Virus record (IMG/VR): IMGVR_UViG_3300010348_001841
DNA length: 64,000 nt
From: a virus
Taxonomy: Duplodnaviria > Caudoviricetes
Direction: 5' to 3' (one strand)
Of this stretch, positions 13,993 through 28,721 are shown piece after piece. The translations under genes and the position numbers were made by a program. Every line of letters begins with the position of its first letter. Within the stretch, counting starts at the first letter, position 1. Under the pieces are notes generated by a model. That model searched no databases. It was not told the DNA's origin and was given only the letters and a program-made list of their open reading frames with translations.

Positions 13993-14002
13993 AAATATAA
14001 AT

Positions 14003-14337: not shown

Positions 14338-14343
14338 AAAAAC

Positions 14344-15215: not shown

Positions 15216-15276
15216 AATAGTATTTATCCGAAGTATAAATGAGAAAGCCCATTGCCAATTACGACAATGGGCATAT

Positions 15277-15352: not shown

Positions 15353-15363
15353 ATTGTAAAATC

Positions 15364-15456
15364 AGAATTCATTTAACAAACCCTGCCGGTATTACCGGGG
15401 TGGGGTTCGATTGGAGTTGAACCAATTTTAACCGAAGTTATTGCTGTATGAATTCT
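15364..15456 (-). ncRNA. CAGCAA-stem RNA copy 1 (T arm plus acceptor-like stem)
   Basis: AGAATTCAT/ATGAATTCT stem, ACAGCAA, ATTGG-TTCAACT-CCAAT. Confidence 0.75.
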
Positions 15457-15622
15457 TTAGAAAAATATTGAAGTTAGATTAGTCTTTATTCTACTGATTG
15501 ACAGATATCGTATGTAGAATAGGCCACACCTCAAAACTTTTATTGTGTATGTCGACACCTATTCTGTTTTGGTCCTAACCAGCCCTGAGAGACATAGTTA
15601 CCTATGTTCCTAACTTCAAATT

Positions 15623-15699
15623 TGGTACCCGTGATCGGATTCGAACCGATACTGTACAGGGTTTAAGTCTGCTGCCTCTACCTATTGCGCTACACGGGC
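15623..15699 (-). tRNA. tRNA-Leu(TAA), short variable region
   Basis: Loop CTTAAAC, A73, CCA. Confidence 0.85.
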
Positions 15700-15879
15700 T
15701 CATTCTTGTTCATCTCGGCGATCGCTCTTTTCAACCTGATGGATGTAATCCGCCAATGTGCGAATTTCTTTTTTCTCTTCTTTCTTTTTTCCGAAGATTC
15801 TATCCCAACCATCTCGGTAGAGATCGTTATTGGTTTTTGATTTGAGCTCATCACCTGTAATTTCGTTTCTACTTGTCAT
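15700..15879 (-). CDS. small hypothetical protein (59 aa)
   Basis: Hand-translated MTSRNEITGDELKSKTNNDLYRDGWDRIFGKK... Confidence 0.6.
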   Translation of the reverse strand: MTSRNEITGDELKSKTNNDLYRDGWDRIFGKKKEEKKEIRTLADYIHQVEKSDRRDEQE

Positions 15880-16093
15880 AATATAATAAAAAGATGTAAA
15901 ATTAGCTTTCGTACACCGCTACAGCCGCCTTTCCGTGTACTCCCCCGGGACAATACTGTTTATCTGCTCGATATGCCTCCGAGCATTTACATGAGCTAAT
16001 TAGCCGGGCTAAGGTTTTCTCGTCTCGAAGAATAGTTGCTGCTGGGTAGCTAATCCAATGCCCTATGCTTCTTACGACCCTAAACATCAAATT

Positions 16094-16185
16094 TGGAGGT
16101 CGGGGGTGGATTCGAACCACCGCTGTATACCGAGTAGTGTGCTTGCTTTGCAGGCAAGTGCATTCGACCGCTTTGCTACCCGACC
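16094..16185 (-). tRNA. tRNA-Cys(GCA) with unusually long variable region
   Basis: Loop CTGCAAA, U73, about 20-nt V region. Confidence 0.8.
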
Positions 16186-16271
16186 ATTATTCTCAATAAT
16201 TCGATAATGTAGCAGGCCCTTTGATTCACAGTCTCGGACATACCACCAGTCATCTTGACTAGCTTCTCGAA

Positions 16272-16676
16272 TTATTTAGTTGTTACAACTTCTACACCAA
16301 GCTCAGATGCTAATTTTTCTAACATTTTTTGCTTAGATTCCTTATCTTTTAATTCCTTCTTAAACTTTCTCTGTAAAGCAGCTTCTTCCTTCTTACGCTT
16401 TTCGTCAGCAAGCCTTGCCTCTTCTGCCGCAAGTAACTTCTTATAATCAGAAACTGTCTTTGCAATAAATTCTTTCTGATTTACAACCTGTTCGATTACC
16501 TTGAAGGTTCCGTGATGTTGCTCAGCTCTAAGTAACAATTCATATTCTTCGTCGGTTACTTCTTCCCACTCAGTAATACTATTTGCCACTAGAACATCGC
16601 CATAATTATCACCATAACTATCATAATAAGCGTATGGCACCTTTCTTATTGAGATAATTGCAATCTTGTGTGACAT
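16272..16676 (-). CDS. hypothetical coiled-coil protein
   Basis: AAGGA RBS, charged helical C-terminus. Confidence 0.65.
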   Translation of the reverse strand: MSHKIAIISIRKVPYAYYDSYGDNYGDVLVANSITEWEEVTDEEYELLLRAEQHHGTFKVIEQVVNQKEFIAKTVSDYKKLLAAEEARLADEKRKKEEAALQRKFKKELKDKESKQKMLEKLASELGVEVVTTK

Positions 16677-16762
16677 AATATTCCTTAGTGAATTCTCGAA
16701 AGCTCCCTTATCTGGGTTATCGTCGTTTTTGCTTCTTCTCGCAGTCAGCTTTATAAGAAACT

Positions 16763-16848
16763 TGGTGGGGCAGGATGGATTCGAACCAACTTAGCCGGAG
16801 GCGACAGATTTACAGTCTGCTGAGGATCTCCAACTCCCCTGCTACCCC
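16763..16848 (-). tRNA. tRNA-Tyr(GTA)
   Basis: Loop CTGTAAA, V-arm, CCA. Confidence 0.85.
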
Positions 16849-16903
16849 ATAATAGTCGGCAGAACGTTGCCAGCGTGGAGAGATATACAGTCAACTCCAA
16901 TCT

Positions 16904-16981
16904 TGGTAGGGCTGGAGGGACTCGAACCCTCTCCTGGCAGATTAAAAGTCTGCTGTGCTAACCATTGAACACTACAACCCC
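16904..16981 (-). tRNA. tRNA-Lys(TTT)
   Basis: Loop CTTTTAA, CCA. Confidence 0.9.
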
Positions 16982-16985
16982 ATTA

Positions 16986-17815
16986 TTACTTTTTCGCATT
17001 GTCTCTATCAAGTAGCAGAGTATTCAAATCTTTGATGCCACCGGCCTGGGTACCGTGGATCCAATGATGCAGATTAGGTCTTAGATAGAATGCAAGTTTT
17101 CTATATAAATCACTGTCGCCTTCATTCCCTTGAACTTTTTCCTGCATCTTCTCAGCTAGTGTCAGAGAGACTTCAAGATGATATTTGATTTGTTCGAGAT
17201 AATTTTTATATTCTTCAGAAGCGTCCATATTTTCTCTTCATTTCTAGATGCATCTTGATTGCTGCACCGCTTGGAAATTTATCACCTTTTAGAAATTCTA
17301 CACCATTGAGTGTGAATGGACTAATAACCTCATCACCGTTCCAGTAATTTCTTACAGTCTTGATAAATCCCATTTCCTCAATATTATTTCTAAACTCAGC
17401 AAACTTAGGATGATCCTCTGAATGTGTACTCGAGATAATGTCTGTTCCTTTTAGTACCTTCACTAACTCATCTTCGGTGAGTTCTTTCTTATTGACATAC
17501 ATACTCCATGTCTTTGTTATGGAGATTGAACACAGATATTTGTCATCTAATTCAAAATTGTAACTTATTACTTTCATTTTCGAGATACCTAATGAAAAGA
17601 GGTGTGACTAAATCATTTAAGTCCGTTAGTTCTATTTCCTGTACCATTGCATTTTCATTAACTATTTCAAATTCATTTTCCAGAATTCTTCTTTTATTAA
17701 TTATAATACCCGTATCAGGATTATGCACAAAATCATGGTCGCCTGAGCCGTCGCCTATATTTGTGCGATAGGCTTTCCAACCTCTCAACTTTGCAATTAG
17801 TATCAAATCATTCAT
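16986..17815 (-). other. three overlapping hypothetical CDSs (16986-17228, 17215-17577, 17552-17815)
   Basis: ORF track; overlapping same-strand ORFs. Confidence 0.6.
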
Positions 17816-17820
17816 ATAGG

Positions 17821-17915
17821 TGGCGGAGATTATGCGATTCGAACGCATGCGGCGTCTCTACGACACCGGCCTCTTCTTAGCAGGAAGGCACAATACCTGA
17901 CTCTGTCAAATCTCC
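17821..17915 (-). tRNA. tRNA-Ser(GCT)
   Basis: Loop CTGCTAA, long V-arm, G73, CCA. Confidence 0.9.
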
Positions 17916-18186
17916 AAATGTGTAATCCCAGGAAGGATTCGAACCTTAAGTGTATCAGACTCCGAGTCTTACCATGTACCTACTCAGTCTTCATTACCCT
18001 TTCTCTGATACATACTCGGGATTATTACTAGCTTCTCGGCGACTCGCATGGGACAAATCATTGTAGCATGGCCACAATCTCTTGTAAAGGCCACCCCGGC
18101 AGGAGTCGAACCTGCTTTACCACGCACCGAATCGAACGGAGTCTCCGGCTTGCGCGCGAGGCCGGGGGAACCAACCCACGAGGTGA

Positions 18187-18423
18187 TTATTTTACGAAAT
18201 GAGGATAACCTTCCTTAGCCTTCCAGGATAGATGAATCCATCCCTTAGGGACATAATGGCTGATACCTTGGGCATCAAAAATTCTATGTCCACCCGAGCT
18301 AACTGATAGCCACAGGGGCTGATCAATGGTTACTGAATTATTATCGAAATCATATTTGCGAAACTCCTCGCTTGAGATGTCCACAAATTTATTATCTGAT
18401 TCATTTTTGAATACTACCGACAT
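18187..18423 (-). CDS. hypothetical protein
   Basis: AGGAG RBS, 78 aa. Confidence 0.65.
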   Translation of the reverse strand: MSVVFKNESDNKFVDISSEEFRKYDFDNNSVTIDQPLWLSVSSGGHRIFDAQGISHYVPKGWIHLSWKAKEGYPHFVK

Positions 18424-18501
18424 ACAAACTCCTAATAAGTTATACTCAAAATGTTCTGGAGTGCAGAAACAGAGCAGGATTAGATTTGTATTTATCGTTT
18501 A

Positions 18502-18577
18502 TGGCAACCCCTGTCCGACTCGAACGGACACCCCCCTGACTCAGAATCAAGTGCTCTACCAATTAAGCTAAGAGGCA
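18502..18577 (-). tRNA. tRNA-Gln(CTG)
   Basis: Loop TTCTGAG, CCA. Confidence 0.85.
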
Positions 18578-18792
18578 ATTGTTGGTGTCGACCACGGGTT
18601 CTCCTGTCGACTCTACACACCCTCTTGTGACTGGTTGTGCAGTATATGGCGCTCACCGCCGGCTTCACACCGTACTCCAAGTTTGGTAATATTACCTCCG
18701 AACCTACACATCTCGTGCTGAGTGAGCATAAAAGAATCCCGCATTCCTCCGACTCTCAGCCGTAGCCTTCCTCGGACTCTCAACGGGATAAC

Positions 18793-18867
18793 TGGTACAC
18801 CTACGGGGAATCGAACCCCGCTTTACGCCGTGAAAGGGCGCCGTCCTAACCGATAGACGATAGGTGC
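18793..18867 (-). tRNA. tRNA-Glu(TTC)
   Basis: Loop CTTTCAC, CCA. Confidence 0.9.
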
Positions 18868-18873
18868 ATTGTA

Positions 18874-18945
18874 TGGCAAGGGCGGTAGGAATCGGACCCA
18901 TTCCAACAAGGTTCAAAGCCTCGTGTCGCTCCAAGCGTCACCCCA
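18874..18945 (-). tRNA. tRNA-Gln(TTG), divergent
   Basis: Loop CTTTGAA, reduced D arm, T loop TCCGATT, CCA. Confidence 0.65.
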
Positions 18946-19246
18946 ATTGTAAAAGAGACAGTAACACGATCGGGCTTCTGGGTGCCGATACCAGTTGCTT
19001 TCGCAACAGACCGAAAAGGTCTCGTTGTATGTCTATAAATTAATTACAATTATGGGTGGTATCAATAATTTTCCACCCATACGTATCAGATATTTGTTGA
19101 AATTCAACCTTACACTTTACCACGTTGAAACAACGTGGGCAAAATTTACTATGATAGTCTTGTTGGCCGATATAATTATACATTGGCAAGGATTCTAAAT
19201 TTCCAATCCTTGTTTTCCATTCTATTAATTCCATAATTGTCCTAGA

Positions 19247-19322
19247 TGGTATCCCTATCGGGATTCGAACCCGACTTTCCACCTTGAGAGGGTAGCGTCC
19301 TTTGCCACTAGACGATAGGGAT
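19247..19322 (-). tRNA. tRNA-Glu(CTC)
   Basis: Loop CTCTCAA, CCA. Confidence 0.9.
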
Positions 19323-19460
19323 ATAGACAGTATCAAAAGTAATGCCGGTGCTCGAGTGCCGATTCGTTAAGCCTAAGGGAGAAGACCGTAAAAGCCCTTA
19401 ATCCACCTTCTTACTGCGACGGTCTATCGTTTGATACCGATATTACTTATAACAATTTGA

Positions 19461-19533
19461 TGGACCCGCGTAGAGGAATCGAACCTCTGCAATCTGGTTT
19501 CGTAGACCGGACGCCAAATCCATTGGACGCGAG
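19461..19533 (-). tRNA. tRNA-Arg(ACG)
   Basis: Loop CTACGAA, CCA; reduced D arm. Confidence 0.8.
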
Positions 19534-19534
19534 A

Positions 19535-19717
19535 TTAATAGTAACGCTCGAAGAGACTTACCTGACGCTTCTGATGGTATTCTCGTTCAAGACGGTCAAC
19601 ATCTTCAACCGACTGTGGATTACCCGCAGCAATATATGCCTCGAGGTTATCGTGATATGTAGGAGATGTAAAAATTTCTTTCAATAATTCAAAAATATTA
19701 GGAATGTTCATGTTCAT
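19535..19717 (-). CDS. small DUF3563-like protein
   Basis: LEAYIAAGNPQSVEDVDRLERE motif; GAGG RBS. Confidence 0.55.
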   Translation of the reverse strand: MNMNIPNIFELLKEIFTSPTYHDNLEAYIAAGNPQSVEDVDRLEREYHQKRQVSLFERYY

Positions 19718-19782
19718 ATTTGCCTCTTAGTGTTTACACTAATATTTATACTGCATTGCAGCAAAATTGTCAAATATGTTAT

Positions 19783-19856
19783 TGGTAGTCGGTGCGAGAA
19801 TCGAACTCACGAATGCGGCGTATGAAACCACTGTTATACCACTTAACTAACCGACC
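19783..19856 (-). tRNA. tRNA-Met/Ile2(CAT)
   Basis: Loop TTCATAC, CCA. Confidence 0.85.
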
Positions 19857-19863
19857 ATAAAAT

Positions 19864-19956
19864 TGGCGGACCTCGATGGATTTGAACCATAACCCCGGCC
19901 GGGATCAAATATGTTTCACAGTGATTTGCGTGTTCGCCCATACACTTCGAAGGTCC
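19864..19956 (-). ncRNA. non-canonical tRNA, Ser-like body with 13-nt anticodon loop
   Basis: Long acceptor, 4-bp T stem, V-arm, G73-CCA; loop CACTGTGAAACAT. Confidence 0.6.
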
Positions 19957-19962
19957 ATGTTT

Positions 19963-20038
19963 TGGTGCCGCCTCCTGGGATCGAACCAGGTTCCTATGCT
20001 CTTCAGGCATCTGTGAGGACCACCTTCACCAAAGCGGC
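19963..20038 (-). tRNA. tRNA-Phe(GAA)
   Basis: Loop CTGAAGA, CCA. Confidence 0.85.
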
Positions 20039-20048
20039 TTAATATATC

Positions 20049-20112
20049 GGAATGCTTTTTTTGCGTTTTCAAATTACAAGTTTGATGCTTTTTATTTTGC
20101 TGAACGCATTCC
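20049..20112 (-). ncRNA. CAGCAA-stem RNA copy 2 (isolated Thr TGT anticodon stem-loop)
   Basis: GGAATGC/GCATTCC stem, TTCAGCAA, TCAAA-CTTGTAA-TTTGA. Confidence 0.75.
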
Positions 20113-20175
20113 TTAAAAATTGGCGTGTCTCGACGATAATTTTCGTCCGAGGCTGTAGACAGCAAGACACATAAC

Positions 20176-20249
20176 TGGTGCGGGCTAGGGGAATCGAACC
20201 CCTGACTACTGGTTGGCAACCAATAATTATACCATTTAACTAAGCACGC
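20176..20249 (-). tRNA. tRNA-Gly(GCC)
   Basis: Loop TTGCCAA, CCA. Confidence 0.85.
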
Positions 20250-20255
20250 ATTATA

Positions 20256-20348
20256 TGGCGGGGAAAGGGTCGTGTCGATCGCCTACCTGTTCTTCACAAG
20301 TACATCTGTTTTCAAGACAGTGACGGAGGCCGCTCCGCATCATTCCCC
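20256..20348 (-). tRNA. tRNA-Ser(TGA) with 8/4-like fold
   Basis: Loop CTTGAAA; 8-bp acceptor, 6-bp D stem, 7-bp V-arm, G73. Confidence 0.75.
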
Positions 20349-20411
20349 ATAATAGATTTGACGGACTGCTTTGCCATTTTCGTAGCAGCCAACGATGGCG
20401 TCATCAAATTT

Positions 20412-20489
20412 TGGTACCCGGATAGAGAATCGAACTCTACACTTGCCTACTTGTAAGGAAGGTGGCTTCACCAGCTGCACTCTCCGGGC
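20412..20489 (-). tRNA. tRNA-Val(TAC)
   Basis: Loop CTTACAA, CCA. Confidence 0.75.
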
Positions 20490-20499
20490 ATATTCGTTT

Positions 20500-20573
20500 A
20501 CGCTATACAGGATTCGAACCTGCGACCTCCACCGTTGCGGGGTGGTGTTCTGGGCCTCTGAACTAATAGGCGT
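20500..20573 (-). pseudogene. tRNA-like gene, GCA anticodon with C33, bulged acceptor, no CCA
   Basis: CCACC-CCGCAAC-GGTGG; GCAGG-TTCGAAT-CCTGT. Confidence 0.6.
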
Positions 20574-20614
20574 CTCTGTATAAAACCAATGTATACAACA
20601 TTGATAATAGTGAA

Positions 20615-20690
20615 TGGTGCCGCGTGATGGATTCGAACCACCCACGCCAGGTTCTTCAGACCTGCGCTCTACCACCTGAGCTAACGCGGC
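20615..20690 (-). tRNA. tRNA-Phe(GAA)
   Basis: Loop CTGAAGA, CCA. Confidence 0.9.
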
Positions 20691-20994
20691 ATATTAGTGC
20701 TATCTTTGATAATCCTGATGGATAGCGGCACCAATGGATGCCAGACATCTAGTCCACAGCCCGGCGATTACATTTTGGTGGACACGCCGTGGAGTCGAAC
20801 CACGTAAACCTATTATCTGGTATCATCCCGAGCACGGCCCATAAATCAAAAGTTTATACAATACGCCACCTGGCCCCTTCCGGGTTTGGACTTACACCTT
20901 GCTTCCAGGCTATTTATCGGCAGAATTTGAACCATTAACCTGAGCGAATGTATAAACTACAGCATCACGAGTGTCTTTCGTGACTCTGCGCTGT

Positions 20995-21072
20995 TGGTAC
21001 CCACGGACGGATTCGAACCGACACTGTACAGGTTTTGAATCTGCTGCCTCCTACCTATTGCGCTACGTGGGC
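20995..21072 (-). tRNA. tRNA-Leu(CAA), short variable region
   Basis: Loop TTCAAAA, CCA. Confidence 0.85.
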
Positions 21073-21073
21073 A

Positions 21074-21517
21074 TTATTTCTTAACTGCAATCATGATAAC
21101 AACACATCCAGATTCGTTATCTTCTAACGTCATTGAATGAATTTTTTCATGATTGAACTCATACATGTTGAATAATTCAACTTCGGCGGTCTCATCTTCT
21201 GCTGTAATCACCGAACGACCCGAGGGCAACACAACAGGAATAACGTATGTTTTTGGCTCAAAAACCGTCGGATCTAGCAGGTCAACATGTGGCTCTGCGC
21301 CCCGACACACACTAAAATAGACATAGTCTAATTTATTCACTGCTACGCCTACAGCCATTGAGACATTAAATAACATCTCAACATCGGCACCATCAATGCG
21401 CCTAATCTGAAATTTAGCAGGGGTGTTTGTTTTGTAATTCTCAAACTTGATTGTATCCGCATTAGCTACAATCTCTTTCGGAATAAAAACTTTGCCGTGA
21501 TTGATAATTTTATTCAT
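21074..21517 (-). CDS. cupin/2OG-Fe(II) oxygenase-like protein
   Basis: PHVD...IHSM metal-ligand pattern in a beta-rich protein. Confidence 0.5.
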   Translation of the reverse strand: MNKIINHGKVFIPKEIVANADTIKFENYKTNTPAKFQIRRIDGADVEMLFNVSMAVGVAVNKLDYVYFSVCRGAEPHVDLLDPTVFEPKTYVIPVVLPSGRSVITAEDETAEVELFNMYEFNHEKIHSMTLEDNESGCVVIMIAVKK

Positions 21518-21568
21518 AATATTTGGAGCCGGCATGTGGATTCACACATGGATCACCCGGCATTGATC

Positions 21569-21645
21569 TGGACGCTAGGGTGGGAATCGAACCCACTCTT
21601 TTTACTGTTTTGCAGACAGCTACCTTCCCAATCGGCCACCTAGCG
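21569..21645 (-). tRNA. tRNA-Cys(GCA)
   Basis: Loop CTGCAAA, U73, CCA. Confidence 0.85.
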
Positions 21646-22032
21646 GTTCTGTTTATAGAGGTAACGACAAATTTTCGCATGCTCCCGTCTTCTTTCATAC
21701 GGACCCACATACACCTTTATCGGCTTCCTTGCCCCGGCGGGGTGGGATGAAACCGGCTTAGTTACATATAGAATTCGTTGCAACGGTATCTATTTTGAAG
21801 TGAGACACTTTTGGATTGACCTGTTGTATCAGCCTACGCTGCGTCGCTCTCAAAATTATAACGTGACGATCGTTGCGGGTCAACCGCGACCTCGGAGACC
21901 AACATTGTTAAGAGGTTTCTTCCGCGCTCTATTCTGAGCTAAACGATCTAAAATTGAATGAAGCACATCGTACAACGTGCGCCCTTCTGAGGTCTTAAAC
22001 AGCGTCCCGTACACGCCGATATGCTTCAAACT

Positions 22033-22106
22033 TGGGGTGAAACCGGGAATCGAACCCTGGCCTACTGTTTCACAGACAGTCTTGCTACCACTACACTAGA
22101 ATCACC
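22033..22106 (-). tRNA. tRNA-His(GTG)
   Basis: Loop CTGTGAA; G-1:C73. Confidence 0.9.
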
Positions 22107-22241
22107 ATAGAATCAAAATTCAGAGTAACCTTATAGGAACACCAATAACCGTAGAACGGCGCCTACATCTTCTTGCAGATGCTCTCAAGGAGCCACAAAC
22201 TCAAGATGTTTTTGTTAAACTAAAAGTATCTGAAATATAAC

Positions 22242-22357
22242 AGGTTCGCATTTATATCCTACCATTAGACGACAGTGGTGACCAACTCCACCGCTGGGAT
22301 TCGAACCCAGATCTTCTTTTTTACAGAAAGAATAATTTTGGCTGCTGAAACGAACCT
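22242..22357 (-). ncRNA. CAGCAA-stem RNA copy 3 (complete circularly permuted tRNA-Tyr-like domain)
   Basis: AGGTTCG/CGAACCT stem; order is anticodon arm (CTGTAAA), T arm, looped acceptor, D arm. Confidence 0.8.
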
Positions 22358-22374
22358 AAAGGTCAAATAAAATC

Positions 22375-22476
22375 GGGATGGGTGACAAAAGCCGGGACTC
22401 GAACCCTATCGTCACACCCCCAGCGGGCCGGCTCGCAGAAGTTTTGGTTGCGAATTTAGATTGCTGCAATCATCCC
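22375..22476 (-). ncRNA. CAGCAA-stem RNA copy 4
   Basis: GGGATG/CATCCC stem, TTGCAGCAA, GGG-TTCGAGT-CCC T loop. Confidence 0.7.
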
Positions 22477-22485
22477 TTAGAAAAT

Positions 22486-22923
22486 TTATGTCAGGATCAA
22501 CGAAGTTGTCCTACTTAACTCTTCAATCAATTCGTCGACCGAATAAAAAACTCCAGTTGCAAATTGATACATTACATCCCACCGATCCGGATCATCAAGT
22601 AAAATATATCCGGGTTTACCTGTTCCAATCACGTATCCAAGTTCAAGGTGAGCTGACTTACCTGCTGGAAGAGCCAGTACTGCTATCTCATTCCTATCAA
22701 GGTGATGTTTATCAAATTCATAAACATGTTTTGCAGCATAACCCTGCAAGCCCTGTTTATAGTTATTTCCCTTTGCAATCTCATATTTTTGCCAATAATC
22801 GTCTGCTTCGGGTCCTGCAGCATACCAGTCATCAAACACCTCATGGCCGGCTGCTCTTAACTTTGACGCAATGGTTCCAATTTGCGGATTACGCAAAGAA
22901 CCGATAAGATAAATTTTTGACAT
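22486..22923 (-). CDS. nucleoside 2-deoxyribosyltransferase-like protein
   Basis: KIYLIGSLRN, FDKHHLD, GKSAHLELGY; own TTGACA-type promoter at about 22941-22969. Confidence 0.65.
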   Translation of the reverse strand: MSKIYLIGSLRNPQIGTIASKLRAAGHEVFDDWYAAGPEADDYWQKYEIAKGNNYKQGLQGYAAKHVYEFDKHHLDRNEIAVLALPAGKSAHLELGYVIGTGKPGYILLDDPDRWDVMYQFATGVFYSVDELIEELSRTTSLILT

Positions 22924-22975
22924 CTTTTCTCCTTTTAAAGAGCATAGCACACGAAATGCCTGATGTCAAATTGTC

Positions 22976-23053
22976 TGGTACCCAAGGAGGGATTCGAACC
23001 CACACTGTACGGTTTCTAAGACCGGTGCCTCCTACCTATTGCGCTACTTGGGC
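22976..23053 (-). tRNA. tRNA-Leu(TAG), short variable region
   Basis: Loop CTTAGAA, CCA. Confidence 0.85.
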
Positions 23054-23129
23054 ATTATATTTTCGAAGTAGGTACCCGTCTGCCAACCCACTGTGGATCC
23101 AGCAGAACACCCACGTATACTTCAAATTA

Positions 23130-23204
23130 TGGCGGGCCATCAAGGATTCGAACCCTGACCGACAGTTTTGGAGACTGGTATGCTGCCAATTACACTAATG
23201 ACCC
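23130..23204 (-). tRNA. tRNA-Trp(CCA)
   Basis: Loop CTCCAAA, G73, CCA. Confidence 0.9.
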
Positions 23205-23279
23205 ATATAGTATTGGGCTTCCCACCCAAGTTGTCTGTTGCCTAGGGCATTATTCAGGTTTACAGATAATCTATCATTT

Positions 23280-23355
23280 TGGCTCCACGACTAGGATTCG
23301 AACCTAGCTCATTCGGTTAACAGCCGAGGGTACTCACCAAGAATACTATCGTGGA
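23280..23355 (-). tRNA. tRNA-Asn(GTT)
   Basis: Loop CTGTTAA, G73, CCA. Confidence 0.9.
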
Positions 23356-23362
23356 ATAATCT

Positions 23363-23974
23363 TTATAAAATATTCAAATCTCTCAAATCTTTATGCATAA
23401 GGACAGTCAATTGTTTCTCTTTAGGAAACTGTGACCATTTTGCACTATCTTTTTCGGTTTTATAACCTTTTATCTCTACATATTCATTTGTCTCTGGAAG
23501 ATAAAAATCTGGAGTATATCTTCTTATTTTATTCTCAAACTCATAAACAAATGATTCAGTATTTCTTTTCCAAAGTGTACCTAGTCTATCAAGGTAACGC
23601 ACATACGCCACTTCCCATGATCCGTGCAAATCTACACCATTGTAATCTATATGCATGCGCCTTGCCAACGATGTATGCCATTCATTATTGACAACCTTTT
23701 TGGCTATTGTGTCTTTTCTTTTTTGTTTTGTTTCTAGAGATTCTTTTTTATTCTTTATCTTGGCAGCATTTGACATTTTGCTTTTGGATTCAACTGTGGC
23801 TGTTTGACAGCGAATATCACCGGAAAGTCCAGTATTCCAGGCCCTCTGTCCTTTGCGATTTCCAGTTGCCCATTCGGATGGGTCTTTTCTTGTAGGATTT
23901 AGTTTACAGAAAACTTCGTGTGCCCTATGAGACTTTATACTTACGCACACCTTGTTACAATATTTGCAATGCAT
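23363..23974 (-). CDS. Zn-finger plus PD-(D/E)XK freestanding endonuclease
   Basis: CKYC..HEVFC; GSWE, YTPDFY..YVEIKG. Confidence 0.8.
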   Translation of the reverse strand: MHCKYCNKVCVSIKSHRAHEVFCKLNPTRKDPSEWATGNRKGQRAWNTGLSGDIRCQTATVESKSKMSNAAKIKNKKESLETKQKRKDTIAKKVVNNEWHTSLARRMHIDYNGVDLHGSWEVAYVRYLDRLGTLWKRNTESFVYEFENKIRRYTPDFYLPETNEYVEIKGYKTEKDSAKWSQFPKEKQLTVLMHKDLRDLNIL

Positions 23975-24195
23975 CTTCTATTTATCAAACTAAGTCCAGT
24001 CCATGCACCAAGCTCGGGTTTCGCGGAATAGAATATTTCGGAGTAGCAGCGGGGTAGTCCCAAATGACAATCCACATACTCCTGCTCATAACCAATGTGG
24101 CCACATTGGTACATGCATTTAGATTGATGCATATAGGAATCGAACCTAGTCCCACAGCCCTAGTCGAGCTTAGCCTCCAAGGAATACATCAAATT

Positions 24196-24271
24196 TGGTG
24201 TCCAGAGTAGGACTCAAACCTATAACCGCTCGCCTATCAAGCAAGTGCTCTATCAATTGAGCTATCCGAGC
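24196..24271 (-). tRNA. tRNA-Ile(GAT), divergent
   Basis: Loop TTGATAG; mismatched acceptor; CCA. Confidence 0.7.
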
Positions 24272-24272
24272 A

Positions 24273-24584
24273 TTATATCTTGCCCTTAAGGGCATTTACG
24301 GTCTCTTCTTCGGGAATATCGCTATAGCGCGGAATCTCCGGATCATATCGACCGTTTAACCATCTATAAATGGTACTTTGATAAAGCTGAGAATTCATAG
24401 CCTCTTTCTCAAGCTTAATATATGATGGCAAACTAAGGGTACACTGCACATCCATGCGTCTTTTACCCTTATTGGATTCAAATAAATGGAAATAAATCTG
24501 TCCCGGTATCTTCTCAAACTTAATATCGATTGAGAGAGATTTTACCAGACGCCAATCATCTTTCCAAAAATTGTACCAGGCCAT
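24273..24584 (-). CDS. hypothetical protein
   Basis: AGGA RBS, 103 aa. Confidence 0.6.
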   Translation of the reverse strand: MAWYNFWKDDWRLVKSLSIDIKFEKIPGQIYFHLFESNKGKRRMDVQCTLSLPSYIKLEKEAMNSQLYQSTIYRWLNGRYDPEIPRYSDIPEEETVNALKGKI

Positions 24585-24674
24585 AATATATCCTAAGTAG
24601 GAAATGGATGGGAATCACCAGCCCCACATCTACCGAAAGGTTGTTTTTGATCACTAAACTACCACTATACTTTC

Positions 24675-24749
24675 TGGAGCGGATAGCGGGAATCGAACCC
24701 GCGCCATCAGTTTGGAAGACTGTTATGCTACCACTAACACCACACCCGC
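24675..24749 (-). tRNA. tRNA-Gly(TCC)
   Basis: Loop CTTCCAA, U73, CCA. Confidence 0.9.
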
Positions 24750-24878
24750 ATAATTGCTGCCGGGTCATTTCTAACGCGATGCACCGACACCCGCGACTTA
24801 CGGGTGGGTGTACATGTACAAGGTCGGCCCACCTATCTTATGTTCTCACCTGGCACCTTTCGATGCCAGGATTTTTCT

Positions 24879-25907
24879 TTAGGCCGGCACGCCGACCCAA
24901 ATCATCAGGCCCATGCCCTTGGTCAACTTACGATTGATCGACGTGGATTGCACGTAGATTTCGTAATTGGCATGATTGCCCGGGGCAAGCTTAACATCGC
25001 CGGTGTGCGGAAGACCGAGCAGATCTCGCGCATTGAAGCCGCTGTAAACTGCACCAGTTGTCTTCTCACGGATGGCAATTTGCTTATAGCCTTGAACAGT
25101 CTCAGTCTTCTTCAGTTCGTAAAAAGCACAGCCCTTAACAAAGGTAACGCCTTGCGCTTCAACGAAATCACGAATCTGCGAACCATCCCATTGATCATCC
25201 ACTTCGTAAACATCAACCTGTTTGGAGATGTCAACAAGTTCAGACTTCACTTCCTTAAGTGTCACAGAACTCAGATCAGCATAGAACTTATCTGTGCTGT
25301 TGATGCCTGCTGCCTTTGCAGCATAGAAACCTCTGAATGCACTCTTAGTCAACGTAGTCGACTGAATCATTCCGCGCTCGCTCTGCTCCCATTCTTGGAT
25401 GTTGCCCTCTGGAATACCATAGCGAACAAGTTGTTGCTTATATCCTGCAGGAACACGAAACACAAACGTCCAACGATCGGTCATTTGCAGTTTCTTGATC
25501 AGTTTAGCGATATCATTACCGCTATACTTTCTGCTGGCGTTTTCGCCACCGTCTGTGGTAGTAAAGACCACAAAAGATACACCGGGATCATCGGCATCAG
25601 GAACGGCCTGCAGTTGTTCAACAAGTTCACCGACCGCATCAAAAAGTGGAGTACCGCGACCACGTGCGCTATAACTGGATTCGCCAATCGGCTTCAATGC
25701 CGAGACAGACGAGTTACTAACAACAGTGCGCACCTTATCGGTGTCACCGTATCCAAGTTCAACAACCGACACAATGGTATCGATGCCATGATTGGATGCT
25801 TCTTCTTTAATCGAAGAAATATTGTCATTGTAATCAACGGCAGCATGGCGTGCAATATGTGCCATAGAGCCCGAATGATCTCGTGCAAAACCGATGTAAT
25901 TCTTCAT
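24879..25907 (-). CDS. von Willebrand factor A (MIDAS) domain protein
   Basis: DHSGSM, GTPLFDAV, TTDGGENAS. Confidence 0.8.
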   Translation of the reverse strand: MKNYIGFARDHSGSMAHIARHAAVDYNDNISSIKEEASNHGIDTIVSVVELGYGDTDKVRTVVSNSSVSALKPIGESSYSARGRGTPLFDAVGELVEQLQAVPDADDPGVSFVVFTTTDGGENASRKYSGNDIAKLIKKLQMTDRWTFVFRVPAGYKQQLVRYGIPEGNIQEWEQSERGMIQSTTLTKSAFRGFYAAKAAGINSTDKFYADLSSVTLKEVKSELVDISKQVDVYEVDDQWDGSQIRDFVEAQGVTFVKGCAFYELKKTETVQGYKQIAIREKTTGAVYSGFNARDLLGLPHTGDVKLAPGNHANYEIYVQSTSINRKLTKGMGLMIWVGVPA

Positions 25908-25970
25908 GTATGCCTTTCTGTGTGGTTAGGTTGTCCGTATACTTTATAAGCATACCTATAACCTGTCAAA

Positions 25971-26090
25971 TGGTGCCGCCCCCGGGAATCGAACGCCGGT
26001 CCTACTCCTTGTCATGGATGGAATAGATTGCTGAACGTATCCTTATCAGGATCACCTTTTTAGTTGTGCTACCATTACACTAAGGCGACA
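25971..26090 (-). ncRNA. CAGCAA-stem RNA copy 5: tRNA with the motif hairpin inserted between D and anticodon arms
   Basis: TGTCGCC/GGCGGCA acceptor plus CCA, D arm, insert GATCCT-GATA-AGGATACGTTCAGCAA, loop ATGACAA, T loop. Confidence 0.75.
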
Positions 26091-26199
26091 TTATTGTGGA
26101 GCACCCGGCTAATATAGAATAGTGATTAGGACGGAGGCATAGAATTGGGCGTTCCAGAGGAAATATAACGATAGCGATCTCTGTCCGGAACATTAAAAA

Positions 26200-26275
26200 T
26201 GGTAGGCTGCCAGGGAGTCGAACCCTGCTGGTACCGGGTAAGAGCCGGTTACATCTGCCGCTCTGTCAACAGCCC
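26200..26275 (-). tRNA. tRNA-Lys(CTT)
   Basis: Loop CTCTTAC, CCA. Confidence 0.85.
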
Positions 26276-26284
26276 ATTAATTGG

Positions 26285-26358
26285 TGGTATCCTGTACGGG
26301 AGTCAAACCCGCCTAAACTGGGTGAAAGCCAGGTGGCCTCTCGGAAGCCTAACAGGAT
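26285..26358 (-). tRNA. tRNA-Glu(TTC), divergent
   Basis: Loop CTTTCAC, atypical D loop, CCA. Confidence 0.75.
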
Positions 26359-26366
26359 ATAGAATT

Positions 26367-26440
26367 TGGTTGTCCCACAAGGTATCGATCCTTGGTCTCT
26401 CGATTATCAGTCGAGTGCTCTACCATTGAGCTATGGGACA
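26367..26440 (-). tRNA. tRNA-Ile(GAT)
   Basis: Loop CTGATAA, CCA. Confidence 0.9.
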
Positions 26441-26444
26441 AATA

Positions 26445-27026
26445 TTATCTTTTATAACATTTATCAAAATGCCATCTCTTCATTACATTATTTCCACCAA
26501 TTATTCCGCAAACAGGACATGTTATGGTCGAATGCACGATATTTTCTCTTTTCTTTCTATTTGGATACTTACGACCCTTTGTGCTTTTTCTTTCAGACTT
26601 TTTTACACCTGTTGAAATATTCTTCTTATGCTCTTCAGATTTGGGTATGCCCGGTGCTCCAGATCCCGGGGATGATATTCCTTTATTCCAGCCGCCTGTT
26701 GATGCCTTGATGCCTTTATTCCAACTTGGTCGACCAGGTGATGCACCATCTAAACCATTTTCTATATCTAGATTGGCCCATTTGTCAGATTTTACAATAT
26801 CAAAGAATTCAGAAATAAATGTCGCAGCTTCTATAAGATTTTCCATATTTAGAAACTGCTCGGCCCATATAGTTTCGATTTCTCTGCCGTGCTTCTTTAT
26901 ATGTTTTACCCAATACTTTCCAGAACCCAAATATTTATAAGGATCTTTTCGTGTTGTTTTTCCGAAATACAGAAGGCCGGTCTGTTTATGTTTCTTTATA
27001 TAAAGATATGTAGGAATAAATATCAT
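26445..27026 (-). CDS. GIY-YIG-like homing endonuclease
   Basis: YLYIKKH..GLLYFGKT..YLGSG; ENGLDG; C-terminal CPVC..RWHFDKC. Confidence 0.8.
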   Translation of the reverse strand: MIFIPTYLYIKKHKQTGLLYFGKTTRKDPYKYLGSGKYWVKHIKKHGREIETIWAEQFLNMENLIEAATFISEFFDIVKSDKWANLDIENGLDGASPGRPSWNKGIKASTGGWNKGISSPGSGAPGIPKSEEHKKNISTGVKKSERKSTKGRKYPNRKKRENIVHSTITCPVCGIIGGNNVMKRWHFDKCYKR

Positions 27027-27073
27027 ACTGTATTTATCTTTTACCAACTGAGCTAAAATCCCGGCATGCGTTA

Positions 27074-27340
27074 TTAATGCTGCACGGATCCTTTGAAATC
27101 AGTGAATTTGTATCTTATTACAACTACCAGACAAGCAATGTTGAGTGCGTAGTTAAAGAGCAATGGCCAATCTTTCTTTGGAAAAATATAGGCAGCGGTT
27201 AGCAATTCACCCACTAACCACATTGCGAGAAATAAATTTGAAATGCCCCTGGAATGCTTTTGTTTATACGATTGCCAGGCTAAAGGAATAGCACACAATG
27301 CAAGTAAAACACTTCCAATCCAACCAATAATGCTTATCAT
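27074..27340 (-). CDS. PQ-loop/SemiSWEET-like membrane protein
   Basis: Three TM helices; IGWIGSVLLALCAIP..GIS..WPLLFNY. Confidence 0.7.
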   Translation of the reverse strand: MISIIGWIGSVLLALCAIPLAWQSYKQKHSRGISNLFLAMWLVGELLTAAYIFPKKDWPLLFNYALNIACLVVVIRYKFTDFKGSVQH

Positions 27341-27610
27341 AATGAAAAGTATAATGATAGCTGATCTTAAACTATCCTGCGACCAAGCAAGGTATTCGGG
27401 CTATACATCTCGGGTCTTCAAAACCGTGTTCTATTTAGTGGACTGCCATCCACAGGCCCTATCAGTAATATAGTACGACGCTGGCAGGCCATCGTAATAC
27501 ATCATATCATTAATCGGAAAGTTAGGTTCGGGTTTCATCACTTACCGTCGTGTTATGCTTTCGCAGAGCGATCCGGGATAGTACCGACTTTATAATTACT
27601 CTAACTAATA

Positions 27611-27689
27611 TGGTCTGGGATGCAAGATTCGAACTTGCGACCTCTCACTTCCAAGGCGAGCCGTCTGACCTGACTGACAATAATCCCAG
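27611..27689 (-). tRNA. tRNA-Pro(TGG)
   Basis: Loop CTTGGAA, C1:G72, A73. Confidence 0.85.
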
Positions 27690-27695
27690 AATGTT

Positions 27696-27774
27696 TGGTC
27701 TCCGATGAGGGATTCGAACTCTCATTGTGTCACACCCCAAATGTGCTGCCATAACCTGGTTAGGCGAATCGGAG
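27696..27774 (-). tRNA. tRNA-Pro(TGG)
   Basis: Loop TTTGGGG, CCA. Confidence 0.85.
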
Positions 27775-27834
27775 AAATTATTAGAAGCGTAGGGAGCGTC
27801 ATGAGCCGATTATACATTCTTCTAAACTAAAAAA

Positions 27835-27910
27835 TGGTGCTCCCACAGGGAATCGAACCCCAATCTACGGACTACAAAACCGTCATAATCAGCCATTATA
27901 CTATAGGAGC
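27835..27910 (-). tRNA. tRNA-Thr(TGT)
   Basis: Loop TTTGTAG, CCA. Confidence 0.85.
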
Positions 27911-27920
27911 AAAACTAAAC

Positions 27921-27976
27921 AGAATACGCATTTGCTTTCATTTACCGTGAAATTTTATATTTGCAGTAGGTATTCT
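27921..27976 (-). ncRNA. CAGCAA-stem RNA copy 6 (CTGCAA variant, anticodon-like hairpin)
   Basis: AGAATAC/GTATTCT stem; TTTCA-CGGTAAA-TGAAA. Confidence 0.7.
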
Positions 27977-27983
27977 TTAAAAC

Positions 27984-28634: not shown

Positions 28635-28721
28635 TGGTGGACCCTGATAGATTTGAACTATCGAAACCTGTGGTGCCGGATGTACATGCCCGGTGGGTTT
28701 GCCCGCTTCCCTAAGGGATCC
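28635..28721 (-). tRNA. Tyr-like tRNA with 8-nt anticodon loop
   Basis: Loop CATGTACA; paralog of 28543-28629; A73, CCA. Confidence 0.6.

What the first reader, a model, noticed from the sequence alone, without database searches (positions are those of the whole stretch)
15364..27976. Six-copy ncRNA family: covarying stem plus CAGCAA motif displaying interchangeable tRNA parts
Seen: copies at 15364-15456, 20049-20112, 22242-22357, 22375-22476, 25971-26090 and 27921-27976. Each has exactly 10 nt followed by CAGCAA (variants CAGCAG and CTGCAA). The first 6-9 nt pair with a complementary strand followed by GA/GT, and stem sequences differ while pairing is kept. Cargo differs: T arm plus acceptor-like stem, a lone Thr anticodon hairpin, a GTA-like hairpin, or a whole tRNA. 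Established: bacterial Y RNAs (YrlA) join a Ro60-binding stem to a tRNA-like domain. Inference: a protein-binding handle with swappable tRNA baits, serving as anticodon-nuclease decoys or adaptors for an RNA repair/decay protein. No clear Ro60/TROVE gene is in this window.
Basis: partly seen in the sequence, partly recalled or inferred. Interest (0 to 1): 0.87.

Follow-up and report, generated by a model that had tools for sequence, protein, structure and literature searches.

The report
Phage small RNAs with CAGCAA handle
Six small RNA genes hidden among a large phage's tRNA genes share one conserved "handle" and carry imitation tRNA parts. They most likely partner a Ro60-like ring protein encoded elsewhere in such phages, and I found no paper describing this RNA family.

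Summary
All six elements exist at the stated coordinates, on the minus strand like the 41 tRNA genes around them. Each has a 7-bp closing stem, 3 nt, then CAGCAA (variants CTGCAA, CAGCAG), a variable cargo, and the complementary strand followed by G(A/U).

A covariance model built here finds 5-8 copies per genome in related phage contigs, always on the tRNA strand. Across 53 copies, 371 of 371 stem positions pair, and 6 of 7 pairs show compensatory changes.

Cargo is either a hairpin shaped like an anticodon loop, or a T arm plus a loop-closed acceptor stem, with or without a D arm. One copy is a normal tRNA-shaped gene with the handle closed by a loop.

There is no YrlA match. Short copies match Rfam's Dictyostelium Class I RNA end to end but below threshold (24-38 bits against 41.5).

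Relatives encode a DUF2828/vWA protein that folds like Ro60, with two handle RNAs just upstream. In other phages the model hits 29 of 80 DUF2828 loci and 0 of 100 control loci.

The gene is not in this window; by synteny it lies about 13 kb past the left edge. Binding, expression and function are untested.

This scan has noted the same family on other DNA many times.

The parts
15362..15459 (-). Copy 1, long form. Handle AGAAUUC/GAAUUCU, AUA, CAGCAA (15441-15446). Then a UUCG-tetraloop hairpin, a T arm (AUUGG-UUCAACU-CCAAU), a loop-closed acceptor-like stem, the 3' handle strand and GA. It ends 11 nt before tRNA-Gln(UUG).
   Evidence: Sequence. Fold z = -3.7. R1 34.6 bits, E 2.9e-5. Ortholog L003 12881-12964.
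20047..20115 (-). Copy 2, short form (66 nt). Handle GGAAUGC/GCAUUCC, GUU, CAGCAA, an A-rich linker, the hairpin UCAAA-CUUGUAA-UUUGA (loop like the anticodon loop of tRNA-Thr UGU), the 3' strand and GA. It ends 10 nt before tRNA-Phe.
   Evidence: Sequence. R1 62.4 bits. The same hairpin recurs in 9 copies from other phages.
22373..22479 (-). Copy 3, long form. Handle GGGAUG(A)/CAUCCC, UUG, CAGCAA, a hairpin with an 11-nt loop, then an acceptor-like stem enclosing a T hairpin (GGG-UUCGAGU-CCC), the 3' strand and GA.
   Evidence: Sequence. R1 22.1 bits, E 0.015. Orthologs L002 12817-12926 and L001 5281-5390.
22240..22358 (-). Copy 4, long form with permuted-tRNA order. Handle AGGUUCG/CGAACCU, UUU, CAGCAG, the hairpin UUCUUU-CUGUAAA-AAAGAA (Tyr GUA-like loop), a T arm (CUGGG-UUCGAAU-CCCAG), an acceptor stem closed by a loop, a D arm (..UAAUGGUAG..), the 3' strand and GU.
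   Evidence: Sequence. RNAfold gives a 9-bp closing stem. R1 does not find it. The L001 ortholog has CAGCAA.
25971..26089 (-). Copy 5, a tRNA-shaped gene with acceptor stem, D arm, T arm and an encoded CCA end. In place of a normal anticodon arm it has the handle as a closed hairpin (26037-26056, loop GAUA), then GUU, CAGCAA (26028-26033) and a 7-bp hairpin with an 11-nt loop.
   Evidence: Sequence. Weak tRNA match of 23.8 bits; the L004 ortholog scores 29.4 bits. Conserved in L001 and L003-L006, with covarying acceptor and handle stems.
27919..27979 (-). Copy 6, short form (58 nt). Handle AGAAUAC/GUAUUCU, CUA, CUGCAA, an A/U linker, the hairpin UUUCA-CGGUAAA-UGAAA (Tyr GUA-like loop with G at position 33), the 3' strand and GU. 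It lies 7 nt after tRNA-Asp and 8 nt before tRNA-Thr.
   Evidence: Sequence. R1 69.4 bits. RF01414 29.8 bits over the full model. Orthologs sit before tRNA-Thr in L002, L003, L004 and L006.
15247..15272 (-). Terminator-like hairpin (11 pairs, U-rich tail) just after tRNA-Gln(UUG). It probably marks the end of the transcription unit that holds copy 1.
   Evidence: Consensus scan only.

Best explanation
The six elements are genes for small non-coding RNAs, transcribed with the phage's tRNA array and probably cut out by the enzymes that process the neighbouring tRNAs.

Each RNA has two parts:
- A constant handle: a 7-bp helix beginning A-G and closed at its inner end by C-G, then 3 nt, a single-stranded C-N-GCAA, and 3'-CUG(U/A).
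- A variable cargo that imitates tRNA parts: an anticodon-type stem-loop, or a T arm with a loop-closed acceptor stem, sometimes with a D arm.

The handle is most likely the docking site for a Ro60-like ring protein (DUF2828 + DUF7788/vWA). Colinear relatives encode this protein about 13 kb beyond the window's left edge. The particle would then work like a Ro60-Y RNA particle, with the tRNA-like cargo presenting the ring to, or holding it on, proteins that handle tRNA.

Shown here: the family, its structure, its placement, its linkage to the gene, and the protein's Ro60-like fold.
Inferred: binding, processing and biological role.
For: 1. The family is real.
- R1 finds 5-8 copies per related genome, all on the tRNA strand.
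- In 53 copies from diverse phages the stem pairs in 371 of 371 cells.
- 6 of 7 pairs change on both sides, giving 97 doubly changed cells against 22.8 in shuffles.
- Slid controls pair in 37-47% of cells.

2. The copies sit in tRNA-sized slots, 7-11 nt from neighbouring tRNAs. No consistent promoter lies upstream of them.

3. Relatives G001, G002 (complete, 364 kb) and G003 encode a 474-477 aa protein with DUF2828 and DUF7788 domains and a conserved DxSxS MIDAS motif.

4. Its AlphaFold model (pLDDT 89, pTM 0.88) matches Ro60 first: the 12 Ro60/TROVE entries listed at the top, including Xenopus, human, Deinococcus and Thermus phage phiLo. E-values are 3e-9 to 7e-6, TM-scores up to 0.64, over the full length. 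Everything below matches the vWA domain only.

5. In G002 two handle RNAs lie 370-600 nt upstream of this gene. G001 and G003 show the same arrangement.

6. Independent linkage test: R1 gives 46 hits in 29 of 80 DUF2828 loci from diverse viral contigs. All are on the gene's strand and about 27 lie within 400 nt of the gene. The same model gives 0 hits in 100 control loci totalling 904 kb.

7. E. coli phage JH2 has three copies just downstream of the gene.

8. Precedent: Y RNA genes lie beside Ro60 genes in bacteria and phages, and YrlA joins a Ro-binding stem to a tRNA-like domain (PMC4201824; PMC12135203).
Against: - The window itself has no DUF2828 or TROVE gene. I could not retrieve the window's own genome.
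- In this clade most copies lie roughly 20-45 kb from the gene, so linkage here rests on 1-2 copies per genome.
- R1 hit only 36% of DUF2828 loci, and none within 5 kb of the gene in Citrobacter phage Ci1.
- The handle has none of the sequence features of known Ro60-binding helices, and RF02553 does not match it.
Confidence: 0.6

Rival explanations
1. The RNAs are stand-alone decoys for host tRNA-cutting defence nucleases or tRNA-modifying enzymes. The cargo hairpin imitates the anticodon stem-loop of the targeted tRNA, and the handle only stabilises the RNA. No Ro60-like protein is needed.
For: Among the cargo hairpins of about 60 copies, 7-nt loops of the form C/A-U-NNN-A-A dominate:
- CUUGUAA (Thr UGU) in 9
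- CUUUUAA (Lys UUU) in 7
- CUUCUAA (Arg UCU) in 2
- Tyr GUA-, Asn GUU- and Asp GUC-like loops in others

The 'anticodon' differs between orthologous copies. Before tRNA-Thr it is GUA in four genomes and UUU in L006. In copy-5 orthologs it is five different triplets. From my own knowledge, several of these tRNAs are targets of known anticodon nucleases (PrrC, colicin E5, colicin D).
Against: - A decoy role does not explain the near-invariant C-N-GCAA, the conserved G-C and U-A stem pairs, or the tight same-strand linkage to the DUF2828 gene.
- A/U-rich loops are expected in these A/U-rich RNAs.
- Some copies have 9-11-nt loops or no stable hairpin.
- Long forms carry T and acceptor arms rather than anticodon arms.
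- This reading is compatible with the best explanation, as the role of the cargo.
Confidence: 0.12
2. The elements act in cis as punctuation for the tRNA transcript: processing or stability signals for RNase E, RNase III or RNase P. They have no function as free RNAs.
For: - They sit 7-11 nt from tRNA ends and are flanked by A/U-rich stretches (UUUCUAA upstream, GUUUUA downstream).
- The phage carries its own RNase P RNA-like gene.
Against: - Most tRNA junctions in the array have no such element.
- The elements also occur beside the DUF2828 gene away from tRNAs, and inside a tRNA-shaped gene as a closed hairpin.
- Conserved single-stranded CAGCAA and elaborate tRNA-like cargo are not needed for punctuation.
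Confidence: 0.08
3. They are true members or homologs of the Class I RNA family of dictyostelid amoebae and work with an RRM-type protein as in Dictyostelium, not with a Ro60-like protein.
For: - All ten short copies in L002-L004, plus copy 6, match RF01414 over the whole model at 23.8-38.1 bits. For copy 6 alone E is 2e-4 against all 4227 families.
- They share the family's published hallmarks: AAG start, 6-bp covarying stem, a motif ending ACAGCAA next to the 5' strand, a variable middle, a CUGU end and a length of 42-65 nt (PMC7919456).
Against: - All scores are below Rfam's cut-off of 41.5.
- The spacer is 1 nt shorter and only the CAGCAA core is shared.
- The JH2 copies do not reach E <= 1 against RF01414, so part of the score comes from A/U richness and size.
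- No RRM protein was found in the window.
- No route of descent between phages and amoebae is known.
Confidence: 0.05
4. The long forms are circularly permuted tRNA genes. Their transcripts would be circularised through the handle and reopened in the acceptor loop to give working tRNAs.
For: - Module order in copy 4, L002 12689, L005 10647 and L006 12422 is T arm, acceptor 3' strand, short loop, acceptor 5' strand, D arm, with or without an anticodon arm.
- Copy 5 has the same modules in normal order, with the handle ends joined as CCUG-NN-AAGG.
Against: - Short forms have no tRNA body at all.
- The acceptor loops are 3-5 nt, with no discriminator or CCA.
- The handle would remain as a bulky insert in the tRNA core.
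- There is no bulge-helix-bulge motif.
- The position of the opening differs between copies: after the D arm in one, in the variable region in another.
Confidence: 0.04

Closest known systems
Bacterial and phage Y RNAs of the YrlA type with Ro60/Rsr (Rfam RF02553; Chen et al. 2014, PMC4201824; Thermus phage phiLo Ro60 with Yrl1/Yrl2, PMC12135203)
   Same: - Small RNAs closed by a stem between the 5' and 3' ends.
- The long forms carry a tRNA-like domain in the same order (T arm, loop-closed acceptor, D arm).
- The RNA genes lie next to, and on the strand of, a gene for a ring protein with the Ro60 fold.
- They occur in phages with tRNA clusters.
   Different: - The protein belongs to DUF2828/DUF7788, not Pfam TROVE; no TROVE match was found in relatives.
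- The handle sequence is different (C-N-GCAA next to a plain 7-bp helix, with no bulged helix or CGAA motif), and RF02553 does not match.
- Most copies carry only a small anticodon-like hairpin.
- There are several copies per genome, mostly scattered in the tRNA array rather than beside the gene.
- One form has the handle closed and the tRNA ends open.
Class I RNAs of dictyostelid social amoebae (Rfam RF01414; Kjellin et al. 2021, PMC7919456)
   Same: - AAG at the start and CUG(U) at the end.
- A 6-7-bp terminal stem conserved in structure but not in sequence.
- A conserved single-stranded motif ending in CAGCAA right after the 5' strand.
- A variable A/U-rich middle.
- Length of 55-66 nt for the short forms.
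- Many gene copies per genome.
- End-to-end matches to the Rfam model.
   Different: - Scores stay below the gathering cut-off (23.8-38.1 against 41.5 bits).
- The spacer is one base shorter.
- There is no DUSE promoter; the RNAs sit within phage tRNA operons.
- The long forms carry tRNA modules.
- The known direct binder in Dictyostelium is an RRM protein (Rnp1A).
Small stable RNAs in the T4 tRNA cluster (species 1 and 2; recalled from my own knowledge, not checked here)
   Same: Non-tRNA stable RNAs encoded among phage tRNA genes and released by tRNA-processing enzymes, with function unknown.
   Different: No sequence or structure comparison was made here. I know of no CAGCAA handle in them.
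Permuted tRNA genes of Cyanidioschyzon merolae (recalled from my own knowledge; cited in PMC4090602)
   Same: The 3' half of the tRNA precedes the 5' half in the gene, and the transcript ends pair with each other.
   Different: There is no bulge-helix-bulge splice motif, and the acceptor is closed by a tiny loop without a discriminator. The same handle also occurs on RNAs with no tRNA body.

Membership tests
YrlA / bacterial Y RNA (RF02553) | Match to the Rfam covariance model | tested here: not met
   No RF02553 match on any copy at E <= 5-10 in the window or in L002-L004. The only weak YrlA hits fall on ordinary tRNAs.
YrlA / bacterial Y RNA (RF02553) | tRNA-like domain: T arm, loop-closed acceptor stem, D arm | tested here: met
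   Complete in copy 4; copies 1 and 3 have a T arm plus acceptor-like stem. Not present in short copies 2 and 6.
YrlA / bacterial Y RNA (RF02553) | Gene adjacent to a Ro60 (TROVE) gene | tested here: not met
   No TROVE match in relatives G001-G005, and no such gene in the window. Instead a DUF2828 protein with a Ro60-like fold has handle RNAs beside it in relatives.
YrlA / bacterial Y RNA (RF02553) | Bound by Ro60 through a conserved helix in the terminal stem | not testable with these tools
   No RNA-protein binding tool or data were available.
Dictyostelium Class I RNA (RF01414) | Score at or above Rfam's gathering cut-off (41.5 bits) | tested here: not met
   Copy 6 scores 29.8 bits. Ten relatives' copies score 23.8-38.1 bits. 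All cover model positions 1-56. Long forms give no match.
Dictyostelium Class I RNA (RF01414) | Short terminal stem conserved in structure, not sequence | tested here: met
   371 of 371 cells pair, and 6 of 7 pairs show compensatory changes.
Dictyostelium Class I RNA (RF01414) | Conserved ~11-nt motif (CCUUACAGCAA) next to the 5' stem strand | tested here: inconclusive
   The CAGCAA core and its position are shared. The preceding bases vary (CUA, GUU, UUC and others) and the spacer is 1 nt shorter.
Dictyostelium Class I RNA (RF01414) | Conserved ends AAG ... CUGU and length 42-65 nt | tested here: met
   The short forms read UAA-AG...CU-GU/GA and are 55-66 nt. The long forms are 95-120 nt.
Dictyostelium Class I RNA (RF01414) | DUSE promoter about 60 nt upstream, in a dictyostelid genome | tested here: not met
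   The elements lie 7-11 nt from tRNAs in a tailed phage: major head protein, tail sheath and tail fibre genes are present.
tRNA (RF00005) | Score at or above 29 bits with a full cloverleaf | tested here: inconclusive
   Copy 5 scores 23.8 bits and its L004 ortholog 29.4 bits. ARAGORN does not call copy 5. The other copies give no tRNA match.
Permuted tRNA genes (C. merolae type) | Bulge-helix-bulge motif at the paired transcript ends, and a processable acceptor with a discriminator | tested here: not met
   The ends form a plain 7-bp helix. The acceptor loops are 3-5 nt with no discriminator or CCA.
Ro60-like protein (DUF2828/DUF7788) as partner, in relatives | HEAT-repeat ring plus vWA domain with a MIDAS motif, as in Ro60 | tested here: met
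   The model has pLDDT 89. The 12 Ro60/TROVE structures listed at the top match over the full length (E 3e-9 to 7e-6). DxSxS is invariant in 70 sequences.

The most novel reading that the evidence does not exclude
The phage handle RNAs and the Class I RNAs of Dictyostelium are one RNA class. Either they share descent or they converged on the same kind of partner. Class I RNAs, thought unique to social amoebae and still unexplained, would then be Y-RNA-like partners of a Ro60-like protein. A concrete lead: one of the four proteins pulled down with Class I RNA DdR-21 is DDB_G0281243, of unknown function (bioRxiv 10.1101/2020.04.05.026054). Nobody seems to have asked whether it, or any dictyostelid protein, has the DUF2828/Ro60 fold.
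Probability: 0.1. Interest if true: 0.9.

Novelty: new variant of a known kind. Interest (0 to 1): 0.7.

Why it matters
If the reading holds, many tailed phages carry an unrecognised branch of the Ro60-Y RNA system. DUF2828 genes occur in 710 cultured-phage records, including Felix O1-like coliphages and Listeria, Staphylococcus, Campylobacter and mycobacterial phages.

The partner RNAs have a simple, recognisable handle and interchangeable tRNA-like cargo. That gives three things:
- a function to test for a very common "hypothetical" phage protein;
- an explanation for unannotated gaps in phage tRNA clusters;
- a small RNA scaffold whose cargo varies between copies and between genomes.

It may also show how phages deal with host attacks on tRNA. 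The resemblance to Dictyostelium Class I RNAs offers a testable idea for RNAs whose molecular role is still unknown.

Tried and rejected
- Whole genome: none is held for this window. Exact-match scans for the window's own contig found nothing in viral or metagenome collections.
- Close relatives in the cultured-phage collection: none by megablast.
- TROVE (PF05731): absent from five relatives' records.
- YrlA: no match.
- A loose stem-plus-motif scan was uninformative. 7-bp stems within 260 nt of CAGCAA are common by chance.
- A 22-nt pattern scan of viral contigs returned mostly random hits. Only L085 held true copies.
- R1 found nothing within 5 kb of the DUF2828 gene in Citrobacter phage Ci1.
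- RF01414 does not reach E <= 1 on the phage JH2 copies.
- Pfam on 30 ORFs in and beside the tRNA array found no RRM, Ro60 or other clear RNA-binding partner.
- A phmmer search of PDB sequences with the DUF2828 protein gave nothing useful. Only the fold comparison showed Ro60.
- A mobile-element (MITE) reading was rejected. The inverted ends differ between copies while keeping their pairing, and the copies sit at syntenic positions.
- A self-cleaving ribozyme reading was considered from motif memory only. I found no match to any Rfam ribozyme.

Full report
CONTEXT

The window comes from a large tailed phage. It encodes a major head protein, a tail sheath and long tail fibres. It also holds an unusually large set of translation-related genes on the minus strand: 41 tRNA-like genes, a permuted tmRNA, a release-factor-domain ORF and an RNase P RNA-like gene. 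No whole genome is held for the window. The cultured-phage collection has no close relative.

OBSERVATION

- a U-rich run ending in UAA;
- a 7-nt strand beginning (A/G)G and usually ending in C;
- 3 nt;
- CAGCAA (CTGCAA in copy 6, CAGCAG in copy 4);
- an A/U-rich linker and a variable cargo;
- the exact complement of the 7-nt strand;
- then GA or GU.

The stem sequences differ between copies: AGAAUUC, GGAAUGC, GGGAUG, AGGUUCG, AGAAUAC.

Copy 5 is the same module in inverted topology. It is a tRNA-shaped gene with acceptor stem, D arm, T arm and an encoded CCA end. Its handle is a hairpin closed by a GAUA loop, followed by GUU-CAGCAA and a hairpin.

IS IT MORE THAN CHANCE?

A loose search was useless, because 7-bp complements near CAGCAA are common by chance. 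A strict descriptor gave about 20 perfect hits in the window and in six related contigs. The contigs were fetched through a conserved 342-aa ORF inside the array. Every hit lay on the tRNA strand and none on the other strand.

I built a covariance model, R1, from 17 short copies. In the window it finds copies 6, 2, 1 and 3. In the whole records of related phages it finds 5-8 copies each. One of these records is a complete 364-kb genome, and another belongs to a second lineage.

Copy 4 escapes the model, but its L001 ortholog carries the canonical CAGCAA. Copy 5 has orthologs upstream of the same ORF in five relatives. Their junction reads CCUG-NN-AAGG, and both the acceptor and handle stems covary.

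Across 53 model hits from diverse phages:
- the stem pairs in 371 of 371 cells;
- 6 of 7 pairs show changes on both sides;
- 97 cells are doubly changed, against 22.8 in shuffles;
- slid controls pair in 37-47% of cells.

Pairing was part of how the copies were found, so the percentage paired is partly circular. The strand bias, the synteny and the empty control (below) are not.

ANATOMY

Short forms (55-70 nt) carry one small hairpin. In about 60 copies its loop is most often 7 nt of the form C/A-U-NNN-A-A:
- CUUGUAA in 9;
- CUUUUAA in 7;
- CUUCUAA in 2;
- CUGUAAA, CUGUUAA, CUGUCAA and variants in others.

These are the shapes of the anticodon loops of tRNA-Thr(UGU), Lys(UUU), Arg(UCU), Tyr, Asn and Asp. 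The middle triplet can differ between orthologs. Before tRNA-Thr it is GUA in four genomes and UUU in L006. In copy-5 orthologs there are five different triplets.

Long forms insert a canonical T arm (GGUUCRANUCC), an acceptor-like stem closed by a short loop, and sometimes a D arm and an anticodon arm. These lie between the hairpin and the 3' handle strand. This is the module order of a tRNA opened away from its acceptor end, as in YrlA.

The elements sit 7-11 nt from neighbouring tRNAs. A strong terminator follows tRNA-Gln just after copy 1. No consistent promoter precedes the elements. I therefore infer that they are co-transcribed and co-processed with the tRNAs.

COMPARISON WITH KNOWN RNA FAMILIES

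At gathering thresholds Rfam sees only tRNAs and the tmRNA. With E-value thresholds no copy matches YrlA. Copy 6 matches Dicty_Class_I_RNA (RF01414) over the whole model at 29.8 bits. On that stretch alone E is 2e-4 against all 4227 families. All ten short copies in L002-L004 match the same family at 23.8-38.1 bits, against a cut-off of 41.5.

The paper that defines Class I RNAs lists these hallmarks: an AAG start, a CUGU end, a short covarying stem, an 11-nt motif ending ACAGCAA beside the 5' strand, a variable middle and a length of 42-65 nt. It reports none outside Dictyostelia (PMC7919456). The phage short forms share all of these except the exact motif and its spacing.

The resemblance is weaker in other lineages. 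The three copies in coliphage JH2 do not reach E <= 1. Part of the score therefore reflects size and A/U content.

THE PROTEIN LINK

Notes from earlier agents of this scan pointed to a DUF2828 "Ro60-like" protein. I tested this myself.
- TROVE is absent from five relatives.
- G001, G002 and G003 each encode a 474-477 aa protein with DUF2828 and DUF7788 domains.
- The family is very large: 6152 cluster representatives at E <= 0.001. Its DxSxS MIDAS motif is invariant.
- Its model (pLDDT 89.2, pTM 0.88) matches Ro60 first: the 12 Ro60/TROVE entries listed at the top, over the full length. E-values are 3e-9 to 7e-6 and TM-scores reach 0.64. All lower hits match the vWA domain only.
- In G002 two handle RNAs, one with a permuted tRNA-like cargo, lie 370-600 nt upstream of the gene. 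G001 and G003 have R1 hits in the same place.

For an independent test I fetched 80 loci encoding relatives of this protein (48-83% identity) from diverse viral contigs. R1 gave 46 hits in 29 of them. All are on the gene's strand, and about 27 lie within 400 nt of the gene. The same search gave 0 hits in 100 control viral loci totalling 904 kb. Each control locus had been selected for containing a 22-nt piece of the motif.

Cultured phages with the gene number 710 records, some annotated "Ro-like RNA binding protein". In E. coli phage JH2 three handle RNAs follow the gene and are interleaved with tRNAs.

The window itself has no such gene. By synteny with G001, window position 1 corresponds to about 100.7 kb in G001. 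The G001 gene lies at about 87-88 kb, roughly 13 kb beyond the window's left edge.

MECHANISM

Best reading, at about 0.6: these are Y-RNA-like partner RNAs. The handle docks the Ro60-like ring, and the tRNA-like cargo engages proteins that recognise tRNA. The precedents are Ro60-Y RNA-PNPase particles and the phage phiLo Ro60 with its adjacent Yrl RNAs (PMC4201824; PMC12135203).

What the particle does is inference. Possibilities include tRNA quality control for the phage's own large tRNA set, or capture or diversion of host tRNA-cutting or tRNA-modifying enzymes. The anticodon-loop-like hairpins make the decoy idea attractive but do not prove it.

Four rivals are weighed in their own sections: stand-alone decoys, cis-acting punctuation, true Class I homologs with an RRM partner, and permuted tRNA genes.

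NOVELTY

My literature searches found no description of a CAGCAA-handle RNA family, of DUF2828 function, or of Class I-like RNAs in viruses. Phage Ro60 with Y-like RNAs is known, but for canonical TROVE proteins and with different RNA motifs. I therefore rate this a new variant of a known kind. The same family has been noted many times by this scan on other DNA. Those notes gave me the DUF2828 lead, which I then checked independently here.

LIMITS

- There are no expression or binding data.
- The window's own genome could not be retrieved.
- R1 is tuned to this clade, so hit rates elsewhere are lower bounds.
- Loop identities rest on simple folding of short A/U-rich sequences.

Noticed in passing
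window 13997-14339 (-): RNase P RNA (bacterial class A)-like gene. It scores 64.5 bits (cut-off 100), E 1.8e-19, and covers the full model. The P4 core strands (GAGGAAguUCgGG and ACAGAAuCCcGGCUA) are kept. The region is conserved in relative G001 at about 111.0-111.3 kb. A quick literature search found no paper on a phage-encoded RNase P RNA.
   Followed up: partly
window 10888-11299 (-): Permuted (two-piece type) tmRNA gene with tag peptide ANDAFYGEVALAA.
   Followed up: no
window 6609-6755 (-), 11795-12346 (-), 6789-7109 (-): Two adjacent suppressor-type tRNAs (anticodons UUA and CUA), an ORF with RF-1/PCRF release-factor domains, and a weak PTH2-like peptidyl-tRNA hydrolase ORF. Together they suggest stop-codon reassignment or manipulation of translation termination, although the structural genes are open under code 11.
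   Followed up: no
window 28635-28721 (-): ARAGORN calls a tRNA with a four-base anticodon (UGUA) in an enlarged loop. It is a possible quadruplet-decoding or frameshift-suppressor tRNA, or a degenerate gene.
   Followed up: no
window 19332-19439 (-) and 20260-20348 (-): Two more unannotated structured RNAs in the array. One is a near-threshold match to the Rhizobiales sRNA Atu_At1 (55 bits, cut-off 60). The other is a tRNA-Sec-like match (36.4 bits, cut-off 47).
   Followed up: no
window 24879-25907 (-) and 25941-25969 (-): A 342-aa ORF with no Pfam match is conserved inside the tRNA array of all relatives (46-87% identity). It is always preceded by the copy-5-type tRNA-shaped RNA and by an invariant TTGACA promoter-like box right after that RNA's CCA end.
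   Followed up: partly
L155 450-552 and 558-676 (G002, about 50.7-50.9 kb): Two tandem handle RNAs upstream of the DUF2828 gene of the complete 364-kb relative. The second has a degenerate motif (CCGCAU) and a full permuted tRNA-like cargo. A small ORF lies between them and the gene.
   Followed up: partly
window 3655-4116 (-), 9830-10171 (-), 28797-29429 (-): Three HNH or NUMOD3-type homing-endonuclease-like ORFs lie in and around the tRNA/tmRNA region. This fits the gene-content differences seen between relatives.
   Followed up: no
bioRxiv 10.1101/2020.04.05.026054 (not a sequence feature): The preprint version of the Class I RNA paper names the four proteins pulled down with Class I RNA DdR-21: GuaB, NdkC, CIBP/Rnp1A and DDB_G0281243 of unknown function. 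The last is worth testing for a DUF2828/Ro60-like fold.
   Followed up: no
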